Source: Eubacteriales bacterium (GTDB taxonomy: Bacteria; Bacillota; Clostridia; Oscillospirales; JAAYXM01). Taken from it: a stretch of 64,000 nt of DNA. The stretch's first letter is position 1. Each line of letters begins with the position of its first letter. The stretch is taken from positions 28,003 to 92,002 of the forward strand of contig JAZQFJ010000091.1 in assembly GCA_045539475.1 (NCBI GenBank). Direction: 5' to 3'. The notes under the pieces are model-generated. The model ran no database searches. It was not told where the DNA came from and worked only from the letters and a program-made list of their open reading frames with translations. The position numbers and the translations under genes were made by a program. Positions 2,611 to 55,760 of the stretch are shown piece after piece.

Positions 2611-2626
2611 TCATGGTGCGCTCCGC

Positions 2627-5335: not shown

Positions 5336-5340
5336 GTGAT

Positions 5341-6109: not shown

Positions 6110-6718
6110 ATGGACAGAATATCTCTTAAGGAAAGAGCAAAGGAACAAATCAGAGGCAAAATATGGGATTTATTTTTGGTGACGCTTGTTGTTTCACTCA
6201 TAACAGGCGCGGTGAACGGAATACTCACCCTGCTTCCGGGAGTTGGAACGGTCGGCGCGATGGTTATAACAGCGCCGCTGTCCATAAGCGTTTTCAAGAT
6301 TTATCTTGACCTCGTAAACGAAAACAAAACCCCGGTTGTCGCAGATGCTTTTTACGGTTATTCGGACTTCGGAAGCTCAGTACTCGTTGTTGTTATTGTG
6401 GCACTTTTCACCTTTCTCTGGTCGCTTCTTTTCGTCATTCCGGGAATCGTTAAGGCGCTCTCTTATTCGCAGGCGTATTACATAATTGCTGAGAATAAAG
6501 GTATGCCGGCGATTGATGCGATAAACCGCTCAAAAGAGATGATGCATGGGCATAAGATGGATTATTTTGTGCTCCAGCTTTCCTTTATAGGTTGGGGACT
6601 TCTCGGAGTTATAACCTGTGGCATTGCATTCATTTGGATAGCTCCGTATATGAATGCAACATACGCAAACTTCTACAACAGCGTAAAAGCATCGTATAAC
6701 GCCGGAAATGTAGCATAA
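6110..6718 (+). CDS. DUF975-family integral membrane protein
   Basis: N-terminal ...LKERAKEQIRGKIW followed by several hydrophobic segments; length and layout are typical of DUF975. Confidence 0.65.
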   Translation: MDRISLKERAKEQIRGKIWDLFLVTLVVSLITGAVNGILTLLPGVGTVGAMVITAPLSISVFKIYLDLVNENKTPVVADAFYGYSDFGSSVLVVVIVALFTFLWSLLFVIPGIVKALSYSQAYYIIAENKGMPAIDAINRSKEMMHGHKMDYFVLQLSFIGWGLLGVITCGIAFIWIAPYMNATYANFYNSVKASYNAGNVA

Positions 6719-6742
6719 AAAACCGCATAATATAAGTAAATA

Positions 6743-6780
6743 TACCCTTGACATTCTCAGGTGTCAAGGGTATACTTTTA
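6743..6780 (+). terminator. hairpin terminator after the DUF975 gene
   Basis: TACCCTTGACA (6743-6753) pairs with TGTCAAGGGTA (6762-6772), followed by TACTTTTAAA. Confidence 0.6.
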
Positions 6781-6810
6781 AATGAATAATCAAATTGAAG
6801 GGTGATTGCA

Positions 6811-7749: not shown

Positions 7750-7790
7750 ATAACCGTGAGCCAAAAAGTAATAATTTAATATGTTGCTTA

Positions 7791-7819
7791 TTGATAAATA
7801 AGAGCCAATGTGATATAAT
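7791..7819 (+). promoter_or_regulatory. candidate promoter embedded in the oxidoreductase terminator
   Basis: TTGATA (7791-7796), 17-nt spacer ending in TGA, TATAAT (7814-7819). Confidence 0.45.
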
Positions 7820-7845
7820 ACAATTCGTTGCATTGGCTCTTTTCT
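7801..7845 (+). terminator. intrinsic terminator of the oxidoreductase gene
   Basis: AGAGCCAATG (7801-7810) pairs with CATTGGCTCT (7831-7840), then TTTTCTC. Confidence 0.7.
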
Positions 7846-8391
7846 CTATGTGAGAGGAGCTAACAATATGGGTAAAGGCCACAATGGACAGATATGTTCA
7901 TGTGACAGATGACTCGTTGTTAAAAGCAGAGTAACAGTTTGAAAGCAATACACTTTCATAGTGTTAAAAAAATGGCGAAAAAATGGCGAAGTAAATACAT
8001 AGTAAATGCTCAAAACCCTTGAAAATAAAGGAGATGTAGACAAATATGAAATTAGGTATAGTAAGATAACGAGTATTTTTATAACTCAATGTAAAGCACA
8101 TAAAAGTGCATAGAACCCTTGTGCTACAAGGATTTTTTGAAAATCAATTTTATAAAACATCATATAACTCCATAAAGGTTTATAAAAAAATGGTGTAAAA
8201 ATGGTGTAGTAAAAAATAATGATTTAAAGAAAAAGACCATTTGCAACGTTTAATTAAATAACTTGATGAATCCGATTTTGCACTTGGAGCAAAGTCGGAT
8301 TTTTAATTCATAATAACTTTTAGAAACAAAATTAGATATTTTGATTTGCGCGATTAAAATGAAAATAAGACTTGGTTTATTTTGATTTAGC

Positions 8392-8420
8392 TTGACAAGT
8401 TGAAATAAATTTATTAAAAT
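8392..8420 (+). promoter_or_regulatory. candidate promoter of the fic gene
   Basis: TTGACA (8392-8397), 17-nt spacer, TAAAAT (8415-8420). Confidence 0.5.
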
Positions 8421-8453: not shown

Positions 8454-9587
8454 ATGAGCAGATCCGGAGAATATATGACAAATTTAAGCGGAGAGGCTGC
8501 ATACAAATCATTTCGTCCGACACCATTGCCGGTAGAGGTGAATATGGATGCAGAAATGATTTCATTACTCACAGAATCTACAAAAGCTTTGGCAACATTA
8601 GATACACTGTCGAGATATATCCCGAATATGAACATGTTTGTGTCTATGTATGTGCGCAAGGAAGCATTATTGTCATCTCAAATAGAAGGAACACAGGCAA
8701 CATTAGAAGATGTTTTAGATCCTTTAATTGAGAAAAATGCAAACCAGAATGTTGCAGATGTAATTAATTATATAAATGCAACTGAGTTTGCGCTTGATCG
8801 CCTGAATACACTGCCGCTATGTAACAGACTTATAAAAGAAACTCATGAAGTTTTAATGAAGGATGTACGAGGACAGGAAAAGAATCCTGGTGAATTTCGA
8901 TATTCTCAAAACTGGATTGGTGCTGCAGGCAGTACATTGAAAAATGCACGATATATTCCGCCTAATCCCGAAGATATGAAACAGGCGATGTCTGATTTAG
9001 AAAAATATATAAATTCAGATGATGAATTGGATTTGTTGATTCAGGCAGCTTTAATTCATTATCAGTTTGAAACAATACATCCGTTTTTAGATGGCAACGG
9101 CCGTGTAGGAAGATTGCTAATTACTTTGTTCTTGATGGAGAAAAAAAGATTAAATACACCTGCACTTTATATTTCTTATTACCTTAAAAATAATCGAATT
9201 GAATACTATGACCGTATGAGTGAAGTGAGAAACAAGAATAATTACGAACAATGGATAAAGTTCTTTCTTCGTGCAATCAAAGAATCTTCAGAAGATGCAG
9301 TTGAAACAATTAATAAATTATCTGAATTGCATGATAAGAATATTGCAATTATAGAGCAAATGGGCAGAGCTTCAAAAACTGCAAAGGAAATCTTTCATTA
9401 CCTTGAGAAAAATCCTATTATAGACATTAAGAAAACAGCCGAAGAACTGTCGCTTGCATTCAGCACAGTTTCTGCTGGTGTAAAAAGACTTGAGGAGTGC
9501 GGAATTCTTGTTCAAACGAATAATGCAAATCGAAATCGCGTATTTGCTTATGAAGATTATCTTGGGATTTTAAGGAAAGATACCTAA
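8454..9587 (+). CDS. fic: Fic family protein (AMPylase-type, class II autoinhibited) with C-terminal wHTH
   Basis: Intact Fic motif HPFLDGNGRVGR, and the N-terminal inhibitory-helix motif SSQIEG, which matches (S/T)xxxE(G/N). Confidence 0.9.
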   Translation: MSRSGEYMTNLSGEAAYKSFRPTPLPVEVNMDAEMISLLTESTKALATLDTLSRYIPNMNMFVSMYVRKEALLSSQIEGTQATLEDVLDPLIEKNANQNVADVINYINATEFALDRLNTLPLCNRLIKETHEVLMKDVRGQEKNPGEFRYSQNWIGAAGSTLKNARYIPPNPEDMKQAMSDLEKYINSDDELDLLIQAALIHYQFETIHPFLDGNGRVGRLLITLFLMEKKRLNTPALYISYYLKNNRIEYYDRMSEVRNKNNYEQWIKFFLRAIKESSEDAVETINKLSELHDKNIAIIEQMGRASKTAKEIFHYLEKNPIIDIKKTAEELSLAFSTVSAGVKRLEECGILVQTNNANRNRVFAYEDYLGILRKDT

Positions 9588-24489: not shown

Positions 24490-25920
24490 ATGCCAGCTAA
24501 GAAACCTACAGTTACTCCTGAAGAAGTGACAACTCCTCAACTTGAGGGAGAAAATGAAGCTAATTTAATAGACCGTAGTCAGAATTCCGAAGTGGCAACA
24601 TCGTTACCCCAGACCGAAACTGAAATCGTATCTGATGAAGCCACCATCATGAATGCGCTTAACTCCAATAATGAGACTGTATCTGAAGACGTGCCCATTG
24701 TCCAGACCGAACCAAACGAAGAAAACCCTTCAGCCGCCGGCTTTGAAGACGCCATGAATTCAGGAGAAAACAATGCATCTCCTCAGACTGATGCAGAAAC
24801 TCTGGAAAATCTCGCTCCAGAGCCCCCTGCTGCCGAAGAGGCGACAGAAACTCACGATGAGAACCAGACCGAACCTGAAAAGCCAAAGCGAACCCGAAGG
24901 CGGAAAGCGGATCCTGAAGATTCACAAAATCAGTCTGATACAGCGCCTGGTTCTGATAAGAATGCCAACCCGGACGGTGTCGAGATTGCTGATAAGCCTA
25001 AGCTTAGAATCAGTCTGCCAAAGCGCTCGGATATTTTATCAATTGATGACGAGCTGGGTGTCGTCACCGATGCAGATAAAGCAAAGACGGAGCTGCTCGA
25101 CCTGCTCGAATCCTACCGCGGCAAAAAACATCTGTCCGGGAAAATTCAGGGCATTGAAAATCCGACCGGGGAGCCTTCAAAATCCCTTGCAGTCCTTGCT
25201 TACGGTGAGTATAAGGTTATCATTCCTCTGCACGAAGCTGTTGAACCGCCGGATGATTTGAAAGGTCAGCCGCTTGATTATGCACTTAATTATATGCTGA
25301 ACAAACGGCTTGGCGCGGAAGTGGATTATATTGTAAAGGGTATTGATGCAAAAACAAAGATTGTAGTGGGCAGCCGTGTGGAAGCGATGCGGAATAAGCG
25401 CAAGAGCTATTACTTTGGCACAGACCGGGATGGGAACTACCTGCTTTATTCCGATATATGTGCTGAAGTCAGGGTTGTATCCGTAGTACGTTCGGGAATA
25501 TTCGTTGATCTGTTCGGACTTGAGGTGTTCATCCCGTTGCGGGAACTCAGTTATCAGCGGTTAATGGATGCAGAAGGATATTTTGCACCCGGACAAAGAG
25601 CACTCGTGAAAATCCTTGAGATCGACAGGTCAGACCGAAAACATATCCGCGTTAAAGCCTCAGTAAAGCAGGCGGGCGAGAACCCGTATGAAAAGGCACT
25701 ACGTAAGTACACTATAGGGAACCGATATGTCGGTACGGTCAGTCTGGTGGATGTGAACGGGGTATTCGTTTCCCTTGACGGTGGCATTGATTGTTTGTGT
25801 AATTACCCAAAGCGCGGCCGCCCGCCAAAGGGTGCAAGAGTTACCATAAGAGTTCTGGGCATCAACTATAACACCAATCGTATGTGGGGTGCAATCACGC
25901 ACATTGCAGCGGCAAGATAG
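24490..25920 (+). CDS. S1 RNA-binding-domain protein with an acidic disordered N-terminus
   Basis: S1-like OB segments, e.g. ICAEVRVVSVVRSGIFVDLFGLEVFIPLRELS and GNRYVGTVSLVDVNGVFVSLDGGIDCLC. The N-terminal ~170 aa are rich in E/P/T/N/D. Confidence 0.7.
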   Translation: MPAKKPTVTPEEVTTPQLEGENEANLIDRSQNSEVATSLPQTETEIVSDEATIMNALNSNNETVSEDVPIVQTEPNEENPSAAGFEDAMNSGENNASPQTDAETLENLAPEPPAAEEATETHDENQTEPEKPKRTRRRKADPEDSQNQSDTAPGSDKNANPDGVEIADKPKLRISLPKRSDILSIDDELGVVTDADKAKTELLDLLESYRGKKHLSGKIQGIENPTGEPSKSLAVLAYGEYKVIIPLHEAVEPPDDLKGQPLDYALNYMLNKRLGAEVDYIVKGIDAKTKIVVGSRVEAMRNKRKSYYFGTDRDGNYLLYSDICAEVRVVSVVRSGIFVDLFGLEVFIPLRELSYQRLMDAEGYFAPGQRALVKILEIDRSDRKHIRVKASVKQAGENPYEKALRKYTIGNRYVGTVSLVDVNGVFVSLDGGIDCLCNYPKRGRPPKGARVTIRVLGINYNTNRMWGAITHIAAAR

Positions 25921-32644: not shown

Positions 32645-32895
32645 TGACAGGAGCTTGCATCCAGGCTCTCGGTACATCGGACGAATTCCCGGTGTTAGAC
32701 TTGTTGATGATTGATACAAGGAACCGTTACGGATTTAGCGCACAGAGCGATCCATAATGATGCAAGCCAAATTGAATATGGGGCCGGAGGGCTGCTTAAT
32801 ACTTTACAGAGTCAATCGTCGGGATGAGACAACAAAATTCCCGACACGTTGGCTCTGTATTGCCATTTTTGCAGACTTTCCGGCCTTTTTCTTTA
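32645..32895 (+). ncRNA. ~250-nt structured 5' leader (two multi-stem domains, the second closed by a terminator-like stem plus U-run)
   Basis: Pairings read by eye: GCTTGCATC 32653-61 with GATGCAAGC 32759-67; GGCCGGA 32782-88 with TCCGGCC 32879-85, then TTTTT; CAGAGTC 32807-13 with GGCTCTG 32851-57; GTCGGGA 32818-24 with TCCCGAC 32839-45. Confidence 0.5.
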
Positions 32896-32913
32896 CAATC
32901 GGAGGTGACTTTA

Positions 32914-33384
32914 ATGAGTAAAAAGACTAAAAAAAGAAAGGGATTGAACAAAGCTCCCATGCGGTGCCCGTATTGCGGCAGCAGTGTGATTCTGCGAAGT
33001 GCTGACGGTATTTATCAGGACAACAGCAGAAATACTATGCTTTATGTATGTTCACACTATCCGGAGTGTGATGCTTACGTAAGAACACATTCCGGGACCA
33101 GGGTTCCGGTCGGTAGTATGGCAAACTCCGAGCTCAGGGCACTGCGCAGGAGCGCTCATCATTATTTCGACCAGCTATATAAGTCCGGGTTCATGTCAAA
33201 GGACGATGCATATTACTGGCTTTCGAGTATTATTGATGCCCCGCTGTCTCAGGCGCATATTGGATACCTGAGCGAATATTACTGTAAGCAGGTCATTGAG
33301 CAGAGTAAAGCATATCTTGAGCAGTGTCGCAGTAAAAGGAAGAAATCCGGGCTATATAAGGCAGGGGGTGCGCTTGCATCATGA
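32914..33384 (+). CDS. zinc-ribbon protein, DUF3268-like
   Basis: ATG 32914 lies 7 nt after GGAGGTG. Motifs CPYCGSS...CSHYPECDAYV, then GSMANSELRALRRSAHHYFDQLY and AHIGYLSEYYCKQVIE, matching my recollection of the DUF3268 pattern. Confidence 0.55.
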   Translation: MSKKTKKRKGLNKAPMRCPYCGSSVILRSADGIYQDNSRNTMLYVCSHYPECDAYVRTHSGTRVPVGSMANSELRALRRSAHHYFDQLYKSGFMSKDDAYYWLSSIIDAPLSQAHIGYLSEYYCKQVIEQSKAYLEQCRSKRKKSGLYKAGGALAS

Positions 33385-33926
33385 AACTCACTCTGCAGCA
33401 ACAAAAATTAGTCGAAGATAATCTCGGTTTGGTAGGCAAAGTAATTCAGCAAAAGGTCCGCGGCTTACATAACATTCCTCATTATACATATGACGACCTG
33501 TTCCAGATCGGTTGTATCGGGCTCAGCAAAGCTGCAGCGACGGATAAGGGTGGGACATTTTCGACATATGCATACAGACTGATCTGGAATGAAATATGCG
33601 ACACTCTCGTGTATGCATCAAAAAAGTATTCAAGGGAGGATGCGTATGAGGATGTTGGACTTGTTTTCAAGGAAGAGACTAAAGATTTTGGCGATACAGC
33701 AAAGATAGAGCTATATGATGTTATATCGGAGGCGAAGCGTAATGTTTCGCCATCGGTTGCACTTGGCATTGATGCTTTGCTCCTTATGAACGATGGATAT
33801 ACCGCTAAAGACATCGGCTCTTTATTCGGTAAGACAACAAATACGATAACGGCACTTATATCTAAGGCAAAAAAGCATCTTCGCTCTATTCCCGAGCTTC
33901 GGGCTCTTAACCGCGAATCGGTATGA
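33381..33926 (+). CDS. sigma-70 family RNA polymerase sigma factor (small, group 4-like)
   Basis: Region 2-like DDLFQIGCIGLSKAA...FSTYAYRLIWNEI and region 4 HTH YTAKDIGSLFGKTTNTITALISKAKKHL. ATGA overlap with the upstream gene. Confidence 0.8.
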   Translation: MKLTLQQQKLVEDNLGLVGKVIQQKVRGLHNIPHYTYDDLFQIGCIGLSKAAATDKGGTFSTYAYRLIWNEICDTLVYASKKYSREDAYEDVGLVFKEETKDFGDTAKIELYDVISEAKRNVSPSVALGIDALLLMNDGYTAKDIGSLFGKTTNTITALISKAKKHLRSIPELRALNRESV

Positions 33927-34297
33927 AGAAAAAACTGTTTATTATCCCGGTACTATTCTTTGTGTTGGTAATGGTTTTGTTCCGCTGTGTTATTTACATC
34001 GGATATGTTCCGTCAGGATCAATGGAGCCGACTATCCCGGCAGGAAGTAAGGTGATAGGTATTCGAATAATCCCGGAGCTTGAGAAAGGTGATATTATTG
34101 TTTTCGGGTATGGAGATACATATATGATCAAGCGCATTGCCGCGAGCCCCGGGGACAAAGTAGGAGGAGGTATTGTACCGGAAGATTGCTATTACGTTCT
34201 TGGTGACAATTCAGCAAATTCCTATGATTCGAGATACTGGGAGAATCCATTTGTGCATCGCAGCAGAATCAAGGCGATAATTATTTGCAAGGTATAA
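33923..34297 (+). CDS. signal peptidase I (S26 family, short form)
   Basis: Catalytic Ser box SGSMEPT, Lys box MIKRIAASPGD, box E LGDNSANSYDSRYW. ATGA overlap with the sigma gene. Confidence 0.85.
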   Translation: MKKKLFIIPVLFFVLVMVLFRCVIYIGYVPSGSMEPTIPAGSKVIGIRIIPELEKGDIIVFGYGDTYMIKRIAASPGDKVGGGIVPEDCYYVLGDNSANSYDSRYWENPFVHRSRIKAIIICKV

Positions 34298-36111: not shown

Positions 36112-36726
36112 CTATATTTCAGAAAATGCCAACCATTGCACTGTATAGGTGTCATATGAAAATCTGCATCCGGCGCTGTTTTCAACCCAGTCGCATTTGA
36201 TACTGTACCATCCGCGAAGTTTTGATCGCAGGTGTGAATCCGTTGAAATCGGTTCAACCCATACTCTGTCATATTCTCGAAGCTCGAAACTTTCAAGGGG
36301 CTGTGTTTTTGGAACTGCACCTTCTGAATATTCCGGAGCTTTGTAATATATCTCTTTCGCTTCCTCAAACGGCACAACGACATTGTCCGGAGCTAAAAGC
36401 AGCATGCTTATAGAATCAACAATCATCCAGCCGTATTCGGTTGACCATACCGGTTGTCCGTGCATGATACGAAGGTTTGTCTGAGGTATCTGAATATCTG
36501 ATTTTTCACTTCCGTTTAGCCGAACACTGCCATTTGTTGTGTTACCAAGCAGGAAATCTGTTGAAACCTTATATAACTCAGCCATTTTGAGAACACTGTC
36601 AATGGTCGGAGATTTTCTTCCGGCTTCCCATGAACTGAGCGTTGGTTGAGAAACGCCAAGCTTTTCCGCTGCCTCAAGCAACTTCAGTTTACACATCTTT
36701 CTTGCTGTTTTGAATTGTCTTGGCAT
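36112..36726 (-). CDS. XRE-family HTH regulator with an uncharacterised ~130-aa C-terminal domain (repressor candidate)
   Basis: N-terminal KLKLLEAAEKLGVSQPTLSSWEAGRKSPTIDSVLKMAELYKVSTDFLLG. Confidence 0.75.
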   Translation of the reverse strand: MPRQFKTARKMCKLKLLEAAEKLGVSQPTLSSWEAGRKSPTIDSVLKMAELYKVSTDFLLGNTTNGSVRLNGSEKSDIQIPQTNLRIMHGQPVWSTEYGWMIVDSISMLLLAPDNVVVPFEEAKEIYYKAPEYSEGAVPKTQPLESFELREYDRVWVEPISTDSHLRSKLRGWYSIKCDWVENSAGCRFSYDTYTVQWLAFSEI

Positions 36727-38229: not shown

Positions 38230-38362
38230 TTGCATTATCGGGTAATGTTTGATATAATATAAATATAAGTTTCACAGTTACCCTATAAGGTAATTACAGT
38301 TTTCTTTGTCTGCAAAGTGTCTGAAGGTCTTGTACCATCAGGCACTTTTTTATTTTCTTATG
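38230..38362 (+). ncRNA. promoter + ~95-nt structured leader/small RNA + intrinsic terminator, repeat family copy 1 of 3
   Basis: TTGCAT 38230-35, 17-nt spacer, TATAAT 38253-58, ATAAGTTTCA, hairpin GTTACC/GGTAAT, then terminator AGTGTCTGA...TCAGGCACT followed by TTTTTTATTTTC. Confidence 0.6.
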
Positions 38363-38450
38363 CTTCTTTGTCAAGAAGCACATAACTGCACAGAGCGCAG
38401 GAGCGTTCCTCCGCGTTTGTGTCGTATATACTCAAGGGTGAAAACTCAAA

Positions 38451-38490
38451 AGAACTCAGAGAATGAAGATATTCTTTGAGTTCTTTTTTT
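38451..38490 (+). terminator. strong intrinsic terminator downstream of copy 1
   Basis: AGAACTCAGAGAAT (38451-64) pairs with ATTCTTTGAGTTCT (38471-84), 14 bp with one G-U, then TTTTTT. Confidence 0.8.
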
Positions 38491-38595
38491 ATATAAACAA
38501 GTGCCTTCAAGGCTCTGTTCAGGTATATTCCGGGGAGTCTTAAGGCTTACCCGCAATATAAATATTTTTCTATATAAGGAGGTAGGTGCTTATGA

Positions 38596-39069
38596 ATGTG
38601 CATCTGCAAATCAATCAAAAAGGCGGTGATTCATTTGTTTGATGATCTGCCTGAGACAGACTATGTCCTGTTTCTTATTCCTACACTGGCAGAGATTATC
38701 TGTGAAGATGTAACGGACAAAGTTCGTGAACTTCATTTCTCTGCATACAGACAGCTTCAGGCACATCTGAACTTCTATAAGGGACGAGGATATTGCGAGA
38801 AGCTACTGTGTAGAATTGCGAAAAAGAAAGGACAACTGATTCTCAAAACCACATCAAAGGCTAAAATGGAAAAGCTTATGAAGCCTCAAGCTCCACATTA
38901 TAACGGTGCAGAGTTCATACCGGACGAATACAACGTTCCGGAAGAAGAACTTATATGCTGGAGCGAAACTTCCTTTTTAGGACCTCTGAATCACATTGCT
39001 TACAAGAGGTACATGAAGGTGTTCGGTGAAGTTTTTCCGGATGAAGCCAAAAAATTATTACAACCATGA
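38596..39069 (+). CDS. hypothetical protein
   Basis: 157-aa ORF ending in an ATGA overlap with ligA. Its ATG is 12-13 nt from GGAGG, and an out-of-frame ATG at 38592 is better placed. Confidence 0.45.
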   Translation: MCICKSIKKAVIHLFDDLPETDYVLFLIPTLAEIICEDVTDKVRELHFSAYRQLQAHLNFYKGRGYCEKLLCRIAKKKGQLILKTTSKAKMEKLMKPQAPHYNGAEFIPDEYNVPEEELICWSETSFLGPLNHIAYKRYMKVFGEVFPDEAKKLLQP

Positions 39070-41069
39070 AAGGAGACTGCACAATAATGAGTGCGAATAA
39101 GTATCAGACAAATCTTGAAAGGATGAAAGAACTCATCCATATTCTTAACGAGGCAGATATTGCTTACTATCGGGATGATAATCCTATTATGACCGATTTT
39201 GACTACGACAGGCTCTTTGATGAGCTGAGCGGTCTTGAGCGGGACACAAAGCTTATTCTGTCCAATTCACCCACCCAGAAGGTGTCGGGAGAAATACTTG
39301 AGGAGCTTACCGAAGTAAGACACACAAAGCCGATGCTTTCTGCAGGAAAAACAAAATCTGTTGCGGATCTTGCGAAGTTTGCAGGAGATAAGGATGTTAT
39401 CTTGTCGTGGAAGCTTGACGGTCTTACTCTTGTACTTCGGTATGAGAACGGCGAGCTTGTCCAAGCGATTACACGCGGTCGTGAAGGCATAATCGGAGAA
39501 GATGTTACGCATACGGCGAAAGTATTCCTCAATATACCGCTGACTGTTCCGGTAAAGGAATCGTTTGAAGTCAGAGGCGAAGGCGTGATATCATGGCAAA
39601 ACTTTGATGAGATCAATTCCGGTCTGCCGGAACCATATGCAAATCCGAGAGGCTTGGCATCCGGAAGCACCAGGAAACTTAATGCAAATGAAGCAAAGAA
39701 AAGATGTTTGGAGTTTTATGCCTTTGAGTTGATTTCTGATAAAATCAGTCATTATGATAAAGAGGAACAGCTCCACTTCCTTGCTTCAAACGGCTTTGAT
39801 GTTGTCCCGCATAAAAGGATTTACGGACCTTCTACACTTGAGGAGATTCAGCATGAAGTTGACAGATTCAATCCCAAGGAATACAAATACGCAGTGGATG
39901 GACTCATTATGGAATATGCTGATATCGCTTATGGTAAGAGCCTTGGAGCAACAGGTCATCATGAGCGCCGACTGATAGCCCTTAAATGGGAAGACGAGCT
40001 TTATGATACTAAGTTTCTTGGAGTCGAGCTTGCTACTACCAGAACAGGTATGGTAAGCCTTACTGCCATTCTGGAACCGGTTACTATCGACGGTACGGTT
40101 GTCACCAGGGCATACCTGCATAATTTTGACATTTTCAACAGTTTCCAGTTCGGAATCGGTGATACGGTCAAGGTTTATAAAGCAAATATGATTATTCCGC
40201 AGATTCAGGAGAATGTTACGCAGAGTAATACATATCAGCTGCCTATGACTTGTCCGTGCTGCGGCGAACCTTTAACAGTGAAGGCTACATCCGGCGGAAC
40301 GAGCTTTTTGTATTGCAATAATTCCGAGTGTCCTGCAAGACTGGTCCAGAAGTTCGTGCACTTCTGCGAGAAAACACGTATGAACATTGAGGGACTTTCG
40401 GAAAGGACCCTGGAAAAGTTTATCGGACGTGGATGGATACGCAATTTTGGAGACCTGTATGAGCTTGAAAAACATAAGGATGAAATTGTAAATACAGAAG
40501 GCTTTGGTGAAAAATCATATCAGCGATTGCAGGCATCTATCGAAAAGAGCCGAAAATGTACGCTCGATAAGTTTATTGCCGGACTTGGTATTCCTATGGT
40601 TGGAAGACATGCAGGAAAAATCATCAACCAGTATTTTGACGGAGACTGGAATGCTTTTGAGCAGGCTATCATTGATGGCTATGACTTCACAGCACTTCCT
40701 GATTTCGGTCAGACTATGCGTGCCAACATATACACATGGTATGCAGATGAGGAGGAAGCAAAGCTTTGGCGTCCGCTACTTGATAAAATCAAATTTATAA
40801 AGGAGAATCATACTATGAACGCTACTGAGAAAACAGTATTTTACGGAAAAACCATCGTTGCTACAGGAAAGCTTGAGAACTATACCCGTGATGAAATTCA
40901 GGCGAAGATCATTTCGCTGGGTGCAACCCCGGCTTCATCTGTAACAAAAAAGACAGACTATGTAATCGTCGGTGAAAAGGCTGGGAACAAGCTTCAAAAA
41001 GCGTTAAATCTTGGCATCCGAACACTGACAGAAGAAGAGTTTGAAAACTTGCTGGTATCCGATAAGTAA
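39066..41069 (+). CDS. ligA: NAD-dependent DNA ligase LigA (element-borne copy)
   Basis: Ia domain DIAYYRDDNPIMTDFDYDRLFDEL, adenylation motif SWKLDGLTL (KxDG), C4 zinc finger CPCCGEPL...CNNSECPA, C-terminal BRCT-like KTIVATGKLENYTRDEIQAKIISLGA. Alternative start ATG 39087. Confidence 0.9.
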   Translation: MKGDCTIMSANKYQTNLERMKELIHILNEADIAYYRDDNPIMTDFDYDRLFDELSGLERDTKLILSNSPTQKVSGEILEELTEVRHTKPMLSAGKTKSVADLAKFAGDKDVILSWKLDGLTLVLRYENGELVQAITRGREGIIGEDVTHTAKVFLNIPLTVPVKESFEVRGEGVISWQNFDEINSGLPEPYANPRGLASGSTRKLNANEAKKRCLEFYAFELISDKISHYDKEEQLHFLASNGFDVVPHKRIYGPSTLEEIQHEVDRFNPKEYKYAVDGLIMEYADIAYGKSLGATGHHERRLIALKWEDELYDTKFLGVELATTRTGMVSLTAILEPVTIDGTVVTRAYLHNFDIFNSFQFGIGDTVKVYKANMIIPQIQENVTQSNTYQLPMTCPCCGEPLTVKATSGGTSFLYCNNSECPARLVQKFVHFCEKTRMNIEGLSERTLEKFIGRGWIRNFGDLYELEKHKDEIVNTEGFGEKSYQRLQASIEKSRKCTLDKFIAGLGIPMVGRHAGKIINQYFDGDWNAFEQAIIDGYDFTALPDFGQTMRANIYTWYADEEEAKLWRPLLDKIKFIKENHTMNATEKTVFYGKTIVATGKLENYTRDEIQAKIISLGATPASSVTKKTDYVIVGEKAGNKLQKALNLGIRTLTEEEFENLLVSDK

Positions 41070-42089: not shown

Positions 42090-42675
42090 TGTCAATCAGA
42101 TAACTCGCAAGGACGCGAGAAACCGCTTTGTTGAAAGCCTCAACGATGCATTTGATATAGGTAAAATCCATTTTGTATTTGCTACATACGATGTGAACAA
42201 GCCATCAGGCCAGCGACAGACCAATAATGTCCATATATACATCAATGTGGACGAATATCTGGAGTTGTGCCGAAAACTGGAATGCGGTGAATTCAAGCAT
42301 ATGATGCAGACCAAGAAGAAAAATAAAGACGATAGTCCTTTGTTTGAACACCTTGGCGGTACATCAGCGAAAATTCTTGCTGAAAGAGGCAGGACTCGCA
42401 AAGACGGGAAAAGCTTATCAAGAACAGCAAAGCTCACGGTCGGAGACAGTACTGATCTTGTATTTTGGGTGAACAGCGGTCCCGGAGAAGCTGATGCTAA
42501 GGGACTTATTGTTCCAAAGTTCGGCAGTAAACCGGAAAACTCCGTGGTTCTCGGTATGAGTTTTGAGTCATTCAGTGAGCTGTTGCTATCTACCAAAATG
42601 CATTATTTTGCATGGCTTGCTACTAAATACGCAAAGGCAGCTGATAAAAGCTCTCGTGTGGGAGATAACGCATAA
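42076..42675 (+). CDS. hypothetical protein
   Basis: ATG 42076 lies 7 nt after GAGGTG and overlaps the previous gene by 14 nt. Confidence 0.5.
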   Translation: MSQLNVNQITRKDARNRFVESLNDAFDIGKIHFVFATYDVNKPSGQRQTNNVHIYINVDEYLELCRKLECGEFKHMMQTKKKNKDDSPLFEHLGGTSAKILAERGRTRKDGKSLSRTAKLTVGDSTDLVFWVNSGPGEADAKGLIVPKFGSKPENSVVLGMSFESFSELLLSTKMHYFAWLATKYAKAADKSSRVGDNA

Positions 42676-42714
42676 TGTTGGAACCGAAAACAGTGATTGC
42701 TGTACAGTTATGAA

Positions 42715-42753
42715 GAGACGGTGGGCATAATTATATGCCTTCCGTCTCGTTTT
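42715..42753 (+). terminator. intrinsic terminator
   Basis: GAGACGG.GGGCATA pairs with TATGCC.TCCGTCTC, then GTTTT. Confidence 0.7.
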
Positions 42754-42758
42754 ATATA

Positions 42759-42827
42759 TTGGCATAAACTTGGCACAAAATTGGCACAGTTTTGCCGATG
42801 ACAAGATAATGTGCAACGCGGTATAAT
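42759..42827 (+). promoter_or_regulatory. TTGGCA x3 (11-bp phasing) fused to a sigma-A type promoter, copy B
   Basis: TTGGCA at 42759, 42770 and 42781; ATGACA (42798-42803), 18-nt spacer, TATAAT (42822-42827). Confidence 0.6.
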
Positions 42828-42889: not shown

Positions 42890-43264
42890 ATGAAAATGAA
42901 ATATTGTCCATACTGCGGTGCTGATCTGTTAGGCGGTACCGCTTCTTTCTGTTCGGAATGCGGAAAGCCTATCAGAAAACGAAAACAGGATGCAAAAAGT
43001 GGGAAAAAGTATCAGACACATAAAAGAAAGAAAAACAAATACGTGGCGGCTGAAGAAATTGTTCTTGACAAGGAAGCACCCCCTGATGAAACTGCAGAAA
43101 CCGTTGATGATGGATATGACGGATACTATGATGATGTCCGACCTGCAGATGAGAATATTGAGCGTCCGGGGCTGGATAAAGCAATTGTTAAGAATCTCAT
43201 CGTTATTATCGCCGGAGTAATTGCGGCTATAAGTATTTGCGTCATGGCGATGTACTTTATGTAG
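42890..43264 (+). CDS. zinc-ribbon protein with C-terminal TM anchor
   Basis: YCPYCGADL...FCSECGKPI, a basic then acidic linker, and C-terminal LIVIIAGVIAAISICVMAMYF. Confidence 0.6.
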   Translation: MKMKYCPYCGADLLGGTASFCSECGKPIRKRKQDAKSGKKYQTHKRKKNKYVAAEEIVLDKEAPPDETAETVDDGYDGYYDDVRPADENIERPGLDKAIVKNLIVIIAGVIAAISICVMAMYFM

Positions 43265-43317
43265 TAGTTGTAAATCAGTGTGGAAACTCGTGTAATTAGT
43301 ATGAGGTGATTTTTTCT

Positions 43318-43881
43318 ATGCTGTACTTATCAAAAGGTGTTTTGTGTAAGGACTCGACAACAGATACAGTCCGTGTTGCGCGTGGGGATGCAGTGTTTGT
43401 TCTGACAAAATCTGAATCCGAAATCTGGCTTAACGGCAGGTTTAATATAGTTTCCGTTACTGATGATAAAAAGGTAAATGCTGTAATCTCACTATATGAA
43501 AAGGGACTTGCAGAATTTGATGAACTATCCGATGCGCTTGGGCAATACAGACTTCTGTCGCGTTGTATCTGCTGTCCTGCCAAATCCGCATTTATCAAGG
43601 CACCGCTTTTAAAGACGGAAAAAACTGTGATGCTATGGCTTGATAATGCAGGAATCCGTCTTTCAACTGCAGAGCTTGTATATCTTATGGAAAATAAGGT
43701 CAGACCTTCGGGTAATCTTTTCGGCGATGAAAACGCCCAGGCACTTATAGAAACAATATATACCAAAGATACGATTTTCGATAATATCCTTGAAAACCGT
43801 ATGGAATACGCGAAATGCAGAAACGAGATTGTTTGTGCGATTCTGACTCTACTAAAAAAGAAAAGGATTGTGATGCTGTAA
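43318..43881 (+). CDS. hypothetical protein
   Basis: ATG 43318 lies 8 nt after GAGGTGA. Confidence 0.5.
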   Translation: MLYLSKGVLCKDSTTDTVRVARGDAVFVLTKSESEIWLNGRFNIVSVTDDKKVNAVISLYEKGLAEFDELSDALGQYRLLSRCICCPAKSAFIKAPLLKTEKTVMLWLDNAGIRLSTAELVYLMENKVRPSGNLFGDENAQALIETIYTKDTIFDNILENRMEYAKCRNEIVCAILTLLKKKRIVML

Positions 43882-44330
43882 TGTTTCTTAAAGAGCTTTA
43901 TCGGGACTTACCGTATATACTGAAGAAGAAAATAGTAATTCATGCTGCAATTGCATTGTTGGCAATGATTTTGTTGTTTGTAATAAGCTTTTGTTTTTCG
44001 GATATTATACTGATGCTCCCCTGTTTGTTTTTGAGCGGTCTGATGATAGTGAAAGCTGCGTTTTTGTTTTACAATTGCATTGCCGGTAACTACATTGAGA
44101 TTACCGGCATATGCTCCGATGTGGAAAAAACGACTATCAGGAAGAAGGTTAAGTATGTAATCCTGAGAGCAGAAGATAAAAAGTTAAAGCTCAATACTCA
44201 TTACAACTTGAAAAATATATGTGTCGGAGATGCTTTGACAGTGTATATATCAAAAAAGGCGTCGCTATATTATAAGGACGGAATGTATATTGCCAATGAG
44301 TTTTACGGAGTTGTCGTTAATGATGATTAA
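43881..44330 (+). CDS. hypothetical membrane protein
   Basis: TAATG overlap with the previous gene; two hydrophobic helices followed by a soluble C-terminal domain. Confidence 0.5.
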   Translation: MFLKELYRDLPYILKKKIVIHAAIALLAMILLFVISFCFSDIILMLPCLFLSGLMIVKAAFLFYNCIAGNYIEITGICSDVEKTTIRKKVKYVILRAEDKKLKLNTHYNLKNICVGDALTVYISKKASLYYKDGMYIANEFYGVVVNDD

Positions 44331-44342: not shown

Positions 44343-44470
44343 TTGACTATTTTTACTTGATATGATATAATAAAAATATAAGTTTCAAGGTTTCAGTAAG
44401 AGAAATCACAGTTATCCAAGTTTACAAAGTGTCAATGAGCACATTCGTGCTTTTTGGCACTTTTTTATTT
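44343..44470 (+). ncRNA. promoter + structured leader/small RNA + terminator, repeat family copy 2 of 3
   Basis: TTGACT 44343-48, 17-nt spacer, TATAAT 44366-71, ATAAGTTTCA, hairpin GGTTTC/GAAATC, terminator AGTGTCAA...TTGGCACT followed by TTTTTTATTTTC. Confidence 0.6.
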
Positions 44471-44546
44471 TCTTGATTTCTGCCCGGCTACGGGTTGAAA
44501 TAAATATATTTTTTTAGCAGGTAACCCCTGCAGAAAGGAGTTTTCC

Positions 44547-45041
44547 ATGTTGAAAGTATTCTCAACAAATGTCGTTGTATCGAAAGGTTTCAACGGCGCC
44601 CCGGCACTCAAATTTTTCAAGGACGACAACACCAATACCAGGAGCGTCAGATTCCGTATTGGTAAGAAGGTCTATGACTCGCGTGCCGAAAACAATGCCC
44701 GATGGCTTAATTACAGCGTCAAGGCTTTTAATGGCTTGTGCGACCGCATCGAGAAGATGAATATTGAAGAAGGTGCGTACTTGAACATTTCAGGCAGACT
44801 TGACGAAGAGACGTGGACGGATCAGAACAGCGGAGAGACGAAGATGGCAGTGGTCATCATCCTTGATGAGATAGAATATGCCGGCGTCGCGAAACCAAAG
44901 GAAGGTTCAGCTAACGTCCAGACAGCCAAAGCAAACGCTTCAGCAGCTCCTGAAGCACCCGCGCAGAACCCCACAGACTCCGATAATTTTACCGGTTTCC
45001 AGAATTTCGGCGGCAGTGGCGGAATGTTCGATGAAGAATAG
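44547..45041 (+). CDS. ssb: single-stranded DNA-binding protein
   Basis: OB-fold N-terminal ~110 aa, a Gly/Pro/Ala-rich linker, and the acidic C-terminal tip GGMFDEE. Confidence 0.8.
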   Translation: MLKVFSTNVVVSKGFNGAPALKFFKDDNTNTRSVRFRIGKKVYDSRAENNARWLNYSVKAFNGLCDRIEKMNIEEGAYLNISGRLDEETWTDQNSGETKMAVVIILDEIEYAGVAKPKEGSANVQTAKANASAAPEAPAQNPTDSDNFTGFQNFGGSGGMFDEE

Positions 45042-54394: not shown

Positions 54395-54516
54395 TTGACT
54401 ATAATGAGGTTTTCTGATATAATAAATATATAAGTTTCAAGGTTTCCATAGAGAAATCACAGTTATCAGAGTTTACGAAGTGTCGTTTGCGCCATGCGCA
54501 GATGGCACTTTTTTGT
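54395..54516 (+). ncRNA. promoter + structured leader/small RNA + terminator, repeat family copy 3 of 3
   Basis: TTGACT 54395-400, 17-nt spacer, TATAAT 54418-23, ATAAGTTTCA, hairpin GGTTTC/GAAATC, terminator AGTGTC..TGCGC CAT GCGCA..GGCACT followed by TTTTTTGTTTTC. Confidence 0.6.
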
Positions 54517-54620
54517 TTTCTCGCCCAATATTTTGGACACAAGCCGACATCACCTTCGGGTTATGTTGGCTTTTGTTATATATTATCAAAGGCGAAAGCC
54601 TCAAAGAAAGGAGCATTTCT

Positions 54621-55760
54621 ATGCTACAATGTCAAGACGGTTTTTACACCACGTTCAGTTCCTATCCCACAATGAGGAACTACCATGAGGAACAGGCGAA
54701 AGAAAGCAGGTGGGTTCGCTGCAAGGTAAACGAGCTGCAGATTGAAGCACTTGACGATCCTTCGACTATGTACTCACGCCCCATCCCGTTTGCTTCGGGA
54801 ATCACAAGTGAAGCTGTGCACGACACAGCGAAAAACCTCGGCCTGGCTATGGATATTGATGGTAAAGCATACCCCATCCGTACCACGGCCTACAAAAGCC
54901 TGCTCGACAGAGCGAAAATCGGAGGCACCGTTCTCCCCAAACTCAGCCGAAAAGTGTTATCGGATGTTCTGAACGAATGTCTGAAGCTCTATCCCTCGGA
55001 TGCGCTTGTGCTCATAAGGGATCAGAAGGTATCCGCCGTTCACTCAGGTGATGAAGTGGATTATTCCGTTCTGCCGATTGATGAGCTTCTGGGCACTCTT
55101 CAGGATAAGCTGGATGCACGCTTTCCGGGAAACGAGTTTGAATACGGTTACTCGGATCATTCGATTACCAGTGCATCTTGGACGATGCCGAATCAAAAGG
55201 ATGACCTTGTCGGCGATTATGCAAAGCATTTGACCGCAATAGGTAAATCATACCTTGCAAAGAACCTTGTGCCGGGTATCAGGTTTATAACGTCGGACAC
55301 GGGGGTTGCTTCCGCAAAGGTATCGGCTCTGCTTATGGGCGGTCAGTATCCTATCCATATAGGGAGCTGTATTGCGGTGGATCACAGACATCAGTCCAAG
55401 GTCGAGAATTTTACAAATGCACTCGACCAGCTCTTTGCTCAGTTCGGGGATTCTGTTGCAAAGCTTCAGAAGCTTACGGAGATTACACTGTCATATCCGG
55501 TCAATGCAATGACAAGGATTTGCAAAAAACTCAGTATGCCGAAGAAAGCTGCACTCGGAGCAATCCGGATGTTTGAGATGTCATACGGTGGCGGACCTGC
55601 AACGGCTCATGACGTGTTTATGGCGATGCAGGAAATTATGTTTCTTCTAAAAACAGAGAATACCCCGGAGAGTAAGCTCTTGTTTATTGAAGAGAACCTT
55701 GCCAGAACCCTGTCTTTTGATTGGGATCAGTATGACCTTGCAAAGGCGGTGAACTACTGA
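54621..55760 (+). CDS. DUF932-family protein (common on conjugative elements)
   Basis: ATG 54621 follows AAAGGAG. The tracked extension (54480) would run through the copy-3 terminator. The family call is by overall resemblance. Confidence 0.55.
   Translation: MLQCQDGFYTTFSSYPTMRNYHEEQAKESRWVRCKVNELQIEALDDPSTMYSRPIPFASGITSEAVHDTAKNLGLAMDIDGKAYPIRTTAYKSLLDRAKIGGTVLPKLSRKVLSDVLNECLKLYPSDALVLIRDQKVSAVHSGDEVDYSVLPIDELLGTLQDKLDARFPGNEFEYGYSDHSITSASWTMPNQKDDLVGDYAKHLTAIGKSYLAKNLVPGIRFITSDTGVASAKVSALLMGGQYPIHIGSCIAVDHRHQSKVENFTNALDQLFAQFGDSVAKLQKLTEITLSYPVNAMTRICKKLSMPKKAALGAIRMFEMSYGGGPATAHDVFMAMQEIMFLLKTENTPESKLLFIEENLARTLSFDWDQYDLAKAVNY

What the first reader, a model, noticed from the sequence alone, without database searches (positions are those of the whole stretch)
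38230..38362. Thrice-repeated promoter / structured leader / terminator module heading the DNA-processing operons (copy 1)
Three ~125-nt + strand segments (38230-38362, 44343-44470, 54395-54516) align almost base for base. Each has a -35 (TTGCAT or TTGACT), an exact 17-nt spacer ending in TGA, and a TATAAT -10. After that come ATAAGTTTCA, a 6-bp hairpin, A.TMACAGTT.TC...GT.T.C.AAGTGTC, a second hairpin, and GGCACTTTTTT.TTTTCT. Both hairpins keep their pairing while the sequence changes. Hairpin 1 is GTTACC/GGTAAT in copy 1 but GGTTTC/GAAATC in copies 2-3. Hairpin 2 keeps the base AGTGTC/GGCACT around three unrelated, self-complementary interiors. That is compensatory variation, which points to selection on a folded RNA (or ssDNA) rather than plain duplication. 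Each copy heads a co-oriented operon: unknown gene plus ligA, ssb, and DUF932-YqaJ-helicase-primase. I see no other promoter between the U-tract and the first gene, so downstream expression would need terminator read-through. I do not recognise this as a known RNA family. It looks like an element-wide antitermination or riboregulatory device, or a family of small RNAs.
Basis: seen in the sequence. Interest (0 to 1): 0.8.

Follow-up and report, generated by a model that had tools for sequence, protein, structure and literature searches.

The report
Repeated promoter–leader–terminator RNA module
Three copies of a strong promoter followed by an ~85-base folded RNA and a transcription stop signal sit in front of the DNA-handling operons of a gut-bacterial conjugative element. 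The module belongs to a widespread RNA family absent from Rfam that most likely controls whether transcription continues into those genes.

Summary
A covariance model built from relatives finds exactly three copies in the window, scoring 82-102 bits against at most 33 bits anywhere else.

Each copy has these parts:
- a near-consensus sigma-A promoter (TTGAC[T/G], 17 bases, TGnTATAAT)
- a predicted ~85-nt transcript with a covarying hairpin
- single-stranded AGU-type heptamers about 8-9 nt apart
- an intrinsic terminator whose 5' flank is the last heptamer (AGUGUC)

The family is common in gut and rumen Clostridia. A DNA-pattern scan of genomes gave 47 loci. In an independent search anchored on the SSB protein, 79 of 80 metagenome loci carry the module about 80 nt upstream of ssb. 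No Rfam family matches.

The window holds a conjugative element. Two related loci end in Tn916-type regulatory and integrase genes. The modules head the ligA, ssb and DUF932-like/YqaJ/RecD2 operons. No other promoter lies between module and gene. Two of the three leader classes contain a second terminator, and the leader downstream of the terminator also shows conserved RNA pairing.

Best reading (about 0.45): a cis-acting leader for factor-dependent, probably processive, antitermination. Main rival (about 0.25): a family of sibling small RNAs. The mechanism is inferred, not shown.

The parts
38230..38258 (+). Copy 1 promoter: -35 TTGCAT, 17-nt spacer, TG-extended -10 TATAAT
   Evidence: Read directly from the sequence. 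The family-wide consensus is TTGAC[T/G]-17-TATAAT in 34 of 35 distinct relatives.
38264..38357 (+). Copy 1 transcript (predicted start about 38265). Heptamer AGTTTCA 38268-38274; hairpin 1 38276-38295; AGTTTTC 38298-38304; AGTGTCT 38316-38322, which forms the 5' base of terminator 38314-38348; U-tract to 38357.
   Evidence: R1 match of 81.6 bits. Fold of -23.6 kcal/mol, z = -3.5.
38358..38595 (+). Copy 1 downstream leader, with conserved hairpins and a second strong terminator at 38448-38487. It ends at the RBS and ATG of the 157-aa gene (38596), which is followed by ligA at 39066-41069.
   Evidence: Terminator scan. Alignment with L160 shows compensatory changes. LigA domains.
44343..44371 (+). 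Copy 2 promoter: TTGACT, 17 nt, TGATATAAT
   Evidence: 11/12 match with TG extension.
44377..44472 (+). Copy 2 transcript. AGTTTCA 44381-44387; hairpin 1 44389-44407; AGTTATC 44410-44416; AGTTTAC 44419-44425; AGTGTCA 44428-44434 at the base of terminator 44426-44463; then the U-tract.
   Evidence: R1 match of 102 bits. Fold z = -4.65. Heptamer statistics.
44473..44546 (+). ssb leader after the terminator: long hairpin hp3 44475-44501 (GAUUUC..inner stem..GAAAU), UUGAAAUAAAU, hairpin hp4 44517-44531, then the RBS. ssb is at 44547-45041.
   Evidence: Conserved and covarying in 28 aligned relatives. SSB Pfam hit.
54395..54423 (+). Copy 3 promoter: TTGACT, 17 nt, TGATATAAT
   Evidence: 11/12 match with TG extension.
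54429..54520 (+). Copy 3 transcript. AGTTTCA 54433-54439; hairpin 1 54441-54458; AGTTATC 54461-54467; AGTTTAC 54470-54476; AGTGTCG 54479-54485 at the base of terminator 54477-54511; then the U-tract.
   Evidence: R1 match of 87.7 bits. The terminator scan finds 16 pairs.
54521..54620 (+). Copy 3 downstream leader: second terminator-like hairpin 54541-54572 with tail UUUUGUUAU, small hairpin 54591-54600, RBS 54607-54613. The 379-aa DUF932-like gene starts at 54621, followed by YqaJ, DUF7768 and RecD2.
   Evidence: The second hairpin covaries among class B relatives. Gene families.

Best explanation
Each module is the 5' leader of an operon for handling incoming or replicating element DNA. The three operons are the 157-aa gene plus LigA; SSB through the AAA/VWA genes to the methylase; and DUF932-like, YqaJ and RecD2.

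A near-consensus housekeeping promoter fires constitutively. By default the transcript ends after about 85 nt at a strong intrinsic terminator, and in two of the three leader classes a second terminator follows.

The approximately 55 nt made before the terminator carry a recognition element:
- an invariant AGU(U/A)UCA at positions +4 to +10
- a hairpin of variable sequence
- two looser AGU heptamers
- an invariant AGUGUC that is itself the 5' flank of the terminator stem

A factor that reads these repeats would hold the last heptamer single-stranded and/or make the polymerase terminator-resistant, so that transcription runs on into the operon. That factor could be an element- or host-encoded RNA-binding protein, or RNA polymerase itself as with put RNA.

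Shown here: the anatomy, the conservation, the covariation, the linkage to the downstream gene, and the absence of another promoter. Inferred: that read-through is regulated, that the heptamers are a binding site, and that the effect is processive.
For: 1. The promoter is under selection. TTGAC[T/G], exactly 17 nt, then TATAAT occurs in 34 of 35 distinct relatives while the spacer sequence varies freely.
2. Both hairpins form only on the sense strand and covary. Reverse-strand hits score at most 36 bits.
3. In the search anchored on the SSB protein, which does not depend on any DNA pattern, 79 of 80 loci carry the module directly upstream of ssb. AGTGTC and the 5' AGT[T/A]TC are invariant in all 41 distinct sequences.
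4. AGT is 3.7-fold enriched before the terminator. Heptamer spacing clusters at 8-9 nt, and the last heptamer lies in the terminator's 5' strand.
5. No sigma-A-like promoter lies between the U-tract and the start codon in any class.
6. Classes B and C have a second, covarying terminator. That calls for processive read-through.
7. The ssb leader downstream of the terminator keeps RNA pairing through sequence change, so read-through transcripts are under selection.
8. The module stays with the downstream gene when other DNA is inserted upstream: AbiE/GNAT cargo in L270 and L271, and a reverse-strand ORF in L185.
9. RNA-based antitermination across internal terminators is established for conjugative elements of Firmicutes: conAn in pLS20 (PMC8191782) and canT in Tn916 (PMC11658703). 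Relatives of this element end in Tn916-type regulatory and integrase genes.
Against: - No transcript data exist.
- No trans-acting factor was identified. Among about 75 ORFs scanned there is no Pfam hit to NusG, Q, ANTAR, HutP, TRAP or CAT-RBD families, and no ConAn1 homologue.
- No conserved alternative (antiterminator) fold exists.
- All loci belong to one syntenic element family, so the association with three gene classes rests on few independent events.
- A promoter plus terminator with conserved single-stranded motifs is also the standard anatomy of a stand-alone small RNA.
- The second terminators carry no heptamer, so a simple terminator-melting protein would not suffice for classes B and C.
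Confidence: 0.45

Rival explanations
1. The modules are three sibling small-RNA genes. The ~85-nt RNA is the product and acts in trans, by base pairing or as a sponge for a protein that binds AGUNUCA. The downstream operons are transcribed from far upstream by polymerase made terminator-resistant by a canT-like element, so the module terminators double as internal insulators.
For: - The anatomy is the canonical one for a small RNA: strong promoter, short structured RNA, conserved unpaired motifs, strong terminator.
- Several copies per element, as with known sibling sRNAs.
- Relatives have a Tn916-like right end (HTH_3, Sigma70_r4, HTH_16, integrase) where canT sits in Tn916 (PMC11658703).
- The double terminators suggest that module-born transcripts are meant to stop.
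Against: - No cluster of complementary sites occurs elsewhere in the window.
- The modules are always placed 80-290 nt upstream of a co-oriented gene and stay there after upstream insertions.
- The operons would otherwise depend on transcripts that first cross the rest of the element, tens of kilobases, with no local promoter.
- Only one element family is sampled, so the linkage is weak evidence either way.
Confidence: 0.25
2. This is an unregulated attenuator and insulator. The terminator ends the upstream operon, and a fixed small leak from a very strong promoter sets a low constitutive level of the downstream genes. The conserved motifs only serve promoter escape, RNA stability or termination efficiency.
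For: - Upstream genes end 10-90 nt before the -35 with no terminator of their own.
- The promoter-then-terminator order gives a simple way to tune output.
- No factor was found.
Against: - Invariance of two heptamers, of a fixed U.G wobble (39 of 41) and of heptamer spacing across many host families is more than a generic terminator needs.
- Hairpin 1 has no obvious role in this scheme.
- The element also uses the conventional terminator-then-promoter order elsewhere, at 42664-42827.
Confidence: 0.12
3. The heptamers are DNA operators. A repressor of the element binds the direct repeats from +4 to +60 and blocks the strong promoter or elongation, and the RNA structure is incidental.
For: - Direct repeats lie immediately downstream of the start site.
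- An HTH_3 repressor-like gene lies on the opposite strand at 36112-36726.
Against: - Hairpin 1 and the terminator covary and tolerate G.U pairs only on the sense strand.
- The 8-9-bp spacing is off the helical repeat.
- An operator has no reason to coincide with the terminator's 5' flank.
Confidence: 0.08
4. The module is a single-stranded-DNA promoter or priming site (Frpo/ssi or sso type) used when the element enters a recipient as a single strand.
For: There is a striking parallel with F and ColIb leading regions, where a repeated promoter element precedes ssb and other establishment genes (PMC11541004). The region holds ssb and a methylase, and in relatives AbiE.
Against: - The -35 and -10 boxes are colinear and are not rebuilt by a long hairpin in the template strand.
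- Complementarity around the -10 box is no better than in permuted pairs: 3.41 against 3.24 +/- 0.10, reached by 29 of 500 permutations.
- The folds form on the sense strand.
- The oriT and the transferred strand are unknown.
Confidence: 0.03

Closest known systems
Lambdoid late-gene control: pR' - qut - 6S RNA - tR' with Q protein
   Same: A strong constitutive promoter gives a short terminated transcript by default. The genes behind it need read-through of that terminator and of further ones. There is a conserved sequence in the initially transcribed region.
   Different: - No Q-family protein was detected (Pfam and PHROGs scans).
- The promoter spacer, where lambda's Q-binding site lies, is not conserved.
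- The conserved part here is transcribed and includes a covarying hairpin.
- There are three copies per element.
put RNA of phage HK022, EAR RNA of Bacillus eps operons (cis-acting RNA antiterminators)
   Same: A short structured RNA made just after a promoter is thought to act on the polymerase that made it. put also occurs in more than one copy per genome.
   Different: put has two stem-loops and EAR is about 120 nt. Here there is one hairpin plus single-stranded heptamers, and the terminator is part of the conserved unit. No match to any Rfam model.
conAn (pLS20 family) and canT (Tn916) antitermination of conjugation operons
   Same: These are conjugative elements of Firmicutes with internal terminators and an RNA element that lets transcription pass. 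Relatives of this element have Tn916-type regulation and integrase genes.
   Different: - conAn2 is 260-600 nt and follows the conAn1 gene. canT is 341-452 nt. Both are single-copy at the head of the conjugation operon.
- Here the pre-terminator element is about 55 nt, occurs three times, and heads the DNA-processing operons rather than the type IV secretion genes.
- No ConAn1 homologue was found.
HutP- and TRAP-type attenuation proteins (oligomers reading spaced triplets next to or inside a terminator)
   Same: Short repeats at regular spacing in a single-stranded leader, with the last one inside the 5' strand of the terminator. This is the logic by which HutP opens the hut terminator.
   Different: The motif here is AGUNUCA at 8-9-nt spacing rather than UAG or GAG triplets at 5-7 nt. 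No HutP or TRAP family hit was found among the element's proteins. The second terminators lack the motif.
Frpo/ssi single-strand promoters in plasmid leading regions
   Same: A promoter element repeated about three times in front of ssb and other establishment or anti-defence genes, all in one orientation (PMC11541004).
   Different: Frpo is a roughly 300-nt hairpin that rebuilds the -35 and -10 boxes in single-stranded DNA. This is an ordinary double-strand promoter followed by a terminator.
Sibling small RNAs (e.g. LhrC1-5, csRNAs) and protein-sponge RNAs (CsrB type)
   Same: Several paralogous ~90-nt RNAs, each with its own promoter and terminator, carrying repeated short unpaired motifs.
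   Different: Those genes are not tied to the 5' end of particular operons. Here every copy is the only promoter in front of a gene.

Membership tests
Any Rfam 15 family | Match to a covariance model at or near its gathering score | tested here: not met
   The whole window at gathering score returns only DUF3268 RNA at 32646-32768. With E-value thresholds on each copy, the best scores are 17-22 bits against gathering scores of at least 47.
Intrinsic (Rho-independent) terminator | G+C-containing stem-loop immediately followed by a U-run on the transcribed strand | tested here: met
   Stems of 10-16 pairs followed by U6-7 in all copies. 97.9% of cells are paired across 41 distinct relatives.
Sigma-A (sigma-70 type) promoter | -35 TTGACA-like and -10 TATAAT-like hexamers 17 +/- 1 nt apart | tested here: met
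   11/12 matches with a TG extension for copies 2 and 3; copy 1's hexamers were read from the sequence. TTGAC[T/G]-17-TATAAT in 34 of 35 distinct relatives. Activity was not tested.
Riboswitch / classical attenuator | Conserved alternative pairing (antiterminator) that excludes the terminator | tested here: not met
   The consensus fold of the RNA truncated before the 3' strand of the terminator shows only hairpin 1. The individual folds share no alternative helix.
Riboswitch / classical attenuator | Ligand-binding aptamer with conserved junction or loop nucleotides | tested here: inconclusive
   The hairpin 1 loop is not conserved. The conserved bases are linear heptamers. Ligand binding cannot be tested here.
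conAn antitermination system | ConAn1-like protein gene followed by a 260-600-nt conAn2 RNA at the start of the conjugation operon | tested here: not met
   phmmer --max and tblastn of pLS20 ConAn1 against the window give nothing below E = 0.7. The size and position of the module also differ. Caveat: ConAn1 orthologues share only 13-33% identity, so a distant homologue could be missed.
canT of Tn916 | 341-452-nt cis-acting RNA between orf8 and xis that confers processive antitermination | not testable with these tools
   No canT sequence or model was at hand. The size and location differ from the module. The equivalent right-end region lies outside the window.
Frpo/ssi single-strand promoter | Long intrastrand hairpin that places the -35 and -10 boxes in duplex form | tested here: not met
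   The DNA fold of the template strand leaves the promoter in weak, non-conserved pairing. The complementarity test was not significant.
Q-type antitermination | Q-family protein plus a binding site at the promoter and a sigma-dependent proximal pause | tested here: inconclusive
   No Q-family hit in the Pfam or PHROGs scans. The spacer is not conserved. A -10-like TAnnnT overlaps the first heptamer in many relatives but not all. Pausing cannot be tested here.
Trans-acting small RNA gene | Own promoter and terminator | tested here: met
Trans-acting small RNA gene | Complementary targets or a partner protein | tested here: inconclusive
   There are no clusters of TGANACT in the window, and the count equals expectation (20 against 18.8). 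Targets in the host genome could not be searched.

The most novel reading that the evidence does not exclude
This is a previously undescribed antitermination system. A protein, or the polymerase itself, reads four AGUNUCA heptamers in a ~55-nt nascent leader. The last heptamer is the 5' flank of the terminator. Reading them licenses three constitutive promoters to express the SSB, ligase and recombination 'establishment' operons of a large family of gut Clostridia conjugative elements. That would make it a Gram-positive, double-strand-DNA counterpart of Frpo-driven early expression.
Probability: 0.3. Interest if true: 0.75.

Novelty: new variant of a known kind. Interest (0 to 1): 0.6.

Why it matters
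Conjugative elements move resistance and fitness genes through the gut microbiota. How Gram-positive elements time the genes that protect and complete incoming DNA (SSB, ligase, methylase, recombination proteins) is largely unknown.

This module is a compact, highly conserved and abundant control point placed in front of exactly those operons. It is absent from Rfam and unlike the conAn and canT elements in size, copy number and position.

It gives a concrete target:
- a ~125-bp cassette that can be put on reporters
- a four-heptamer motif to mutate
- an RNA bait to fish for the factor

If the factor exists, it would add a new type to the short list of antitermination systems. If the RNA acts in trans instead, it is a new multicopy small-RNA family of mobile elements.

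Tried and rejected
1. My first DNA pattern (TAAGTTTCA..ACAGTTNTC) in viral contigs gave 44 loci, all chance matches inside genes.
2. A terminator-only pattern gave 92 loci, of which only 4 were true relatives.
3. Plasmid and phage BLAST: no plasmid hit, and one 'Bacteriophage sp.' fragment that is really this element.
4. Alternative antiterminator fold: none is conserved.
5. Frpo-like hairpin around the promoter: not supported.
6. Trans targets: no complementary clusters in the window.
7. Candidate factors:
   - Pfam, PHROGs and NCBIfam scans of about 75 ORFs found only one RNA-binding-domain protein, the tandem-S1 protein at 24490-25920.
   - No close relative of that protein was found in viral contigs, so co-occurrence could not be tested.
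   - No ConAn1 homologue.
8. The relaxase and oriT were not found in the window, so 'leading region' could not be established. The look-up beyond the window's right end hit a short contig.
9. A PDB fold search of the 379-aa protein gave nothing significant. Only the viral library gave DUF932.
10. A mobile promoter-terminator cassette (MITE-like) was rejected: there are only three syntenic positions and no terminal repeats.

Full report
**The observation**

Each begins with a near-consensus housekeeping promoter:
- Copy 1: TTGCAT 38230-38235, 17 nt, TGATATAAT ending at 38258.
- Copy 2: TTGACT 44343-44348, with TATAAT at 44366-44371.
- Copy 3: TTGACT 54395-54400, with TATAAT at 54418-54423.

Copies 2 and 3 score 11/12 with a TG extension in the promoter scan.

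The transcribed part folds into a small 5' hairpin and a long terminator hairpin followed by a U-run. The energies lie 3.5-4.75 standard deviations below shuffles, and 0 of 200 shuffles fold as well.

A covariance model built from relatives was run over the whole window with filters off. It finds exactly these three sites (102, 87.7 and 81.6 bits). Everything else scores at most 33 bits, and the best of those are reverse-strand echoes of the same terminators.

**The element that carries it**

- The first 8 kb look chromosomal: LarE/LarB/LarC-like genes and an oxidoreductase.
- A Gram-positive type IV secretion set follows: a TrbL/VirB6-like protein, an NlpC/P60 hydrolase, PrgI, a VirB4-type ATPase and a VirD4 coupling protein.
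- Next come SLH and LPXTG surface proteins, a DUF3268 zinc-finger gene with its known RNA motif, a sigma factor, and a reverse-strand HTH_3 repressor-like gene.
- The last part is the DNA-handling region that the three modules divide. It holds a 157-aa gene plus NAD-ligase; SSB; AAA and VWA proteins; a methylase; a 379-aa protein; YqaJ; DUF7768; a RecD2 helicase; DUF3854; and an actin-like partition protein.
- Relatives continue to the right with HTH_3, a Sigma70_r4 protein, HTH_16 and a Tn916-type integrase.

The window therefore holds a conjugative element, and two related loci show it is an integrative one with a Tn916-like control and recombination end. It is not a phage, even though fragments of it are filed as viral in IMG/VR and GenBank.

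The 379-aa protein has no Pfam or NCBIfam hit. Its AlphaFold model (pLDDT 74) matches DUF932 proteins in the viral structure library at E = 2e-11.

**The family**

A specific three-part DNA pattern found 47 loci in one-genome-per-species bacterial genomes. Nearly all are gut or rumen Clostridia (Oscillospiraceae, Lachnospiraceae, Faecalimonas, Ruminococcus and others), often with two copies per contig. The loci contain 38 distinct sequences.

That search forced several motifs to be present, so I repeated it without reference to the RNA. An alignment of the SSB proteins was used to fetch 80 metagenome loci. The model found the module directly upstream of ssb in 79 of them, at 64-103 bits.

In the 41 distinct sequences of this unbiased set:
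- The 5' AGT(T/A)TC and the AGTGTC at the terminator base are invariant.
- The promoter is TTGAC(T/G), exactly 17 nt, then TATAAT in 34 of 35 distinct upstream regions, while the spacer sequence varies freely.
- The -10 box lies 9-10 nt before the first AGT, which puts that heptamer at about +4 to +10 of the RNA.

**Structure**

On the unbiased set, 95.5% of cells form standard pairs, against 41-57% when the 3' partners are slid by one to three columns. Double (compensatory) changes number 52, against 11.7 +/- 4.5 in shuffles, and 0 of 500 shuffles reach the observed value. Four of the six pairs of hairpin 1 and three inner pairs of the terminator show compensatory changes.

Several positions are G.U or U.G, including an almost invariant U.G in the terminator base (39 of 41). 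The reverse strand scores at most 36 bits. The fold therefore belongs to the sense strand, as expected for RNA.

Nothing in Rfam 15 matches, either at gathering scores or at loose E-values.

**The single-stranded part**

Before the terminator, AGT is 3.7 times more frequent than base composition predicts (156 against 42.7).

The RNA reads:
- AGU(U/A)UCA
- hairpin 1
- AGU(W)(U)NC
- AGUU(U)NCA
- AGUGUCA

The last three sit 8-9 nt apart in most sequences. The first and last heptamers are invariant, and the last is the 5' flank of the terminator stem.

No conserved alternative helix competes with the terminator. This is therefore not a classical two-state attenuator or riboswitch.

**Link to the genes**

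All 38 distinct copies from the DNA-pattern search, except one on a 562-bp fragment, and all those from the SSB-anchored search are followed within 80-290 nt by a co-oriented gene with a strong ribosome-binding site. Those genes fall into three classes:
- Class A: ssb.
- Class B: the DUF932-like gene.
- Class C: a 115-157-aa gene followed by ligA.

No sigma-A-like promoter lies between the U-tract and the start codon.

Class B leaders contain a second covarying terminator-like hairpin. Class C leaders contain a second strong terminator at 38448-38487 plus further conserved hairpins.

The ssb leader after the terminator has a long hairpin with an inner stem that covaries, and a second hairpin just before the ribosome-binding site. 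There is no room for a promoter between the terminator and these structures. They can only exist in transcripts that passed the terminator, so read-through RNA is under selection.

When extra DNA is inserted, it goes upstream of the module and never between module and gene. The examples are an AbiE toxin-antitoxin pair, an acetyltransferase and a DUF3789 gene in L270 and L271, and a reverse-strand ORF in L185.

The upstream operons end 10-90 nt before the -35 box with no terminator of their own. Elsewhere the element uses the ordinary terminator-then-promoter order, at 42664-42827.

**Interpretation**

The best-supported reading is a cis-acting leader. A strong constitutive promoter's output is stopped by default and is released into the operon when something recognises the nascent ~55-nt element.

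The overlap of an invariant heptamer with the terminator's 5' strand suggests binding that keeps that strand unpaired, which is the logic of HutP. The tandem terminators in two classes suggest that the polymerase becomes generally terminator-resistant, as with Q, N, put, conAn or canT.

RNA-based antitermination is documented in conjugative elements of Firmicutes (PMC8191782, PMC11658703). Those elements are 260-600 nt, single-copy, and sit at the head of the conjugation operon. No ConAn1 homologue is present here. This would therefore be a different system with the same purpose.

I put this reading at about 0.45, because nothing about transcripts or factors is shown.

The only protein of the element with an RNA-binding domain is a tandem-S1 protein next to VirD4. 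It is a candidate and nothing more.

**Rivals**

1. Sibling small RNAs (about 0.25). The short RNA is the product, acting in trans or as a protein sponge. The operons are expressed by terminator-resistant polymerase arriving from a Tn916-like promoter and canT-like element. The anatomy fits. The fixed position in front of genes, the lack of local promoters, and the long path such transcripts would have to travel around the element argue against it. However, all loci are one syntenic family, so the linkage is few events.
2. An unregulated leak-and-insulate device (about 0.12). This does not explain the invariant heptamers, their spacing, or the fixed wobble pair.
3. DNA operators for a repressor (about 0.08). 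This does not explain sense-strand covariation or the overlap with the terminator.
4. A single-strand promoter of the Frpo type (about 0.03). The biological parallel is attractive, since Frpo is a repeated promoter element before ssb and other establishment genes (PMC11541004). It fails its defining test. The promoter is not rebuilt by an intrastrand hairpin, and complementarity around the -10 box is no better than in permuted pairs.

**Verdict**

This is a real, abundant and previously uncatalogued structured RNA module of a family of gut Clostridia conjugative elements.

In kind it belongs with promoter-proximal termination and antitermination leaders. In sequence, size, copy number and motif architecture it matches none of the described ones.

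It is worth experimental follow-up. The cassette is small, the predictions are sharp, and isolates that carry it exist.

Noticed in passing
window 32646-32768 (+): A clean match to the DUF3268 RNA motif (RF02966, 103 bits against a gathering score of 65). It lies just after a promoter-like site and upstream of a DUF3268 zinc-finger gene (32824-33384), a sigma-70-type factor (33381-33926) and an S26 signal peptidase (33923-34297). It is a second, unrelated candidate regulatory RNA in the same element.
   Followed up: partly
window 38525-38587 (+): A weak match to the cow-rumen-4 RNA motif (24.3 bits, gathering score 48.5, E = 0.1), right before the ribosome-binding site of the first gene after copy 1. 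The region is conserved in L160.
   Followed up: partly
window 44475-44501 (+) and relatives: The long hairpin in the ssb leader has the same outer arms as hairpin 1 of the module (GRUUUC/GAAAU), around an inner stem that covaries. The 27-29-nt palindrome starting GUUUC and ending GAAAU resembles a CRISPR repeat. It could be a solitary-repeat decoy or just a duplicated module arm.
   Followed up: no
window 54621-55760 (+): The 379-aa protein has no Pfam or NCBIfam hit and nothing significant in the PDB. Its AlphaFold model matches DUF932 proteins of phages at E = 2e-11. It has about 1680 homologues in gut Firmicutes, always next to a YqaJ exonuclease in the loci examined here.
   Followed up: yes
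L270 5993-10001, L271 5948-10001: In relatives from other hosts, an AbiEi/AbiEii toxin-antitoxin pair, a GNAT acetyltransferase, a DUF4314 gene and a 36-aa DUF3789 gene are inserted between the methylase and the module. This gives the stretch the look of an anti-defence island.
   Followed up: partly
L270 17477-21140, L271, L272: The right end of related elements carries HTH_3, a 135-aa Sigma70_r4 protein, HTH_16, DUF6462 and an integrase with the Tn916-type Integrase_DNA domain. This is the Tn916 orf9/orf7/orf8/xis/int layout. A gap of about 420 nt after the HTH_16 gene sits where canT lies in Tn916.
   Followed up: no
window 42664-42827 (+): A conventional junction: a strong terminator followed by two overlapping promoter-like sites (ATGACA-18-TATAAT, 11/12) in front of a three-gene operon of small, mostly membrane proteins (42890-44330). 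That operon is conserved upstream of the ssb module in about 30 loci.
   Followed up: partly
window 24490-25920 (+): A 476-aa protein with tandem S1 RNA-binding domains at its C-terminal end and an N-terminal 290 residues of unknown type. It is encoded directly after the VirD4 coupling protein, an unusual partner for a type IV secretion system.
   Followed up: partly
L045 (GenBank MT837680), L049, L053, L120 (IMG/VR): Records filed as bacteriophage or viral contigs carry the module, ssb and the DUF932-like gene in the same order as this conjugative element. They are probably misclassified fragments of such elements.
   Followed up: partly
window 1-8400: The left end looks like host chromosome: LarE-, LarB- and LarC-like lactate-racemase maturation genes, DUF975 and a Gfo/Idh/MocA oxidoreductase. 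A Fic/DOC gene follows at 8454-9587, near the likely left boundary of the element.
   Followed up: no
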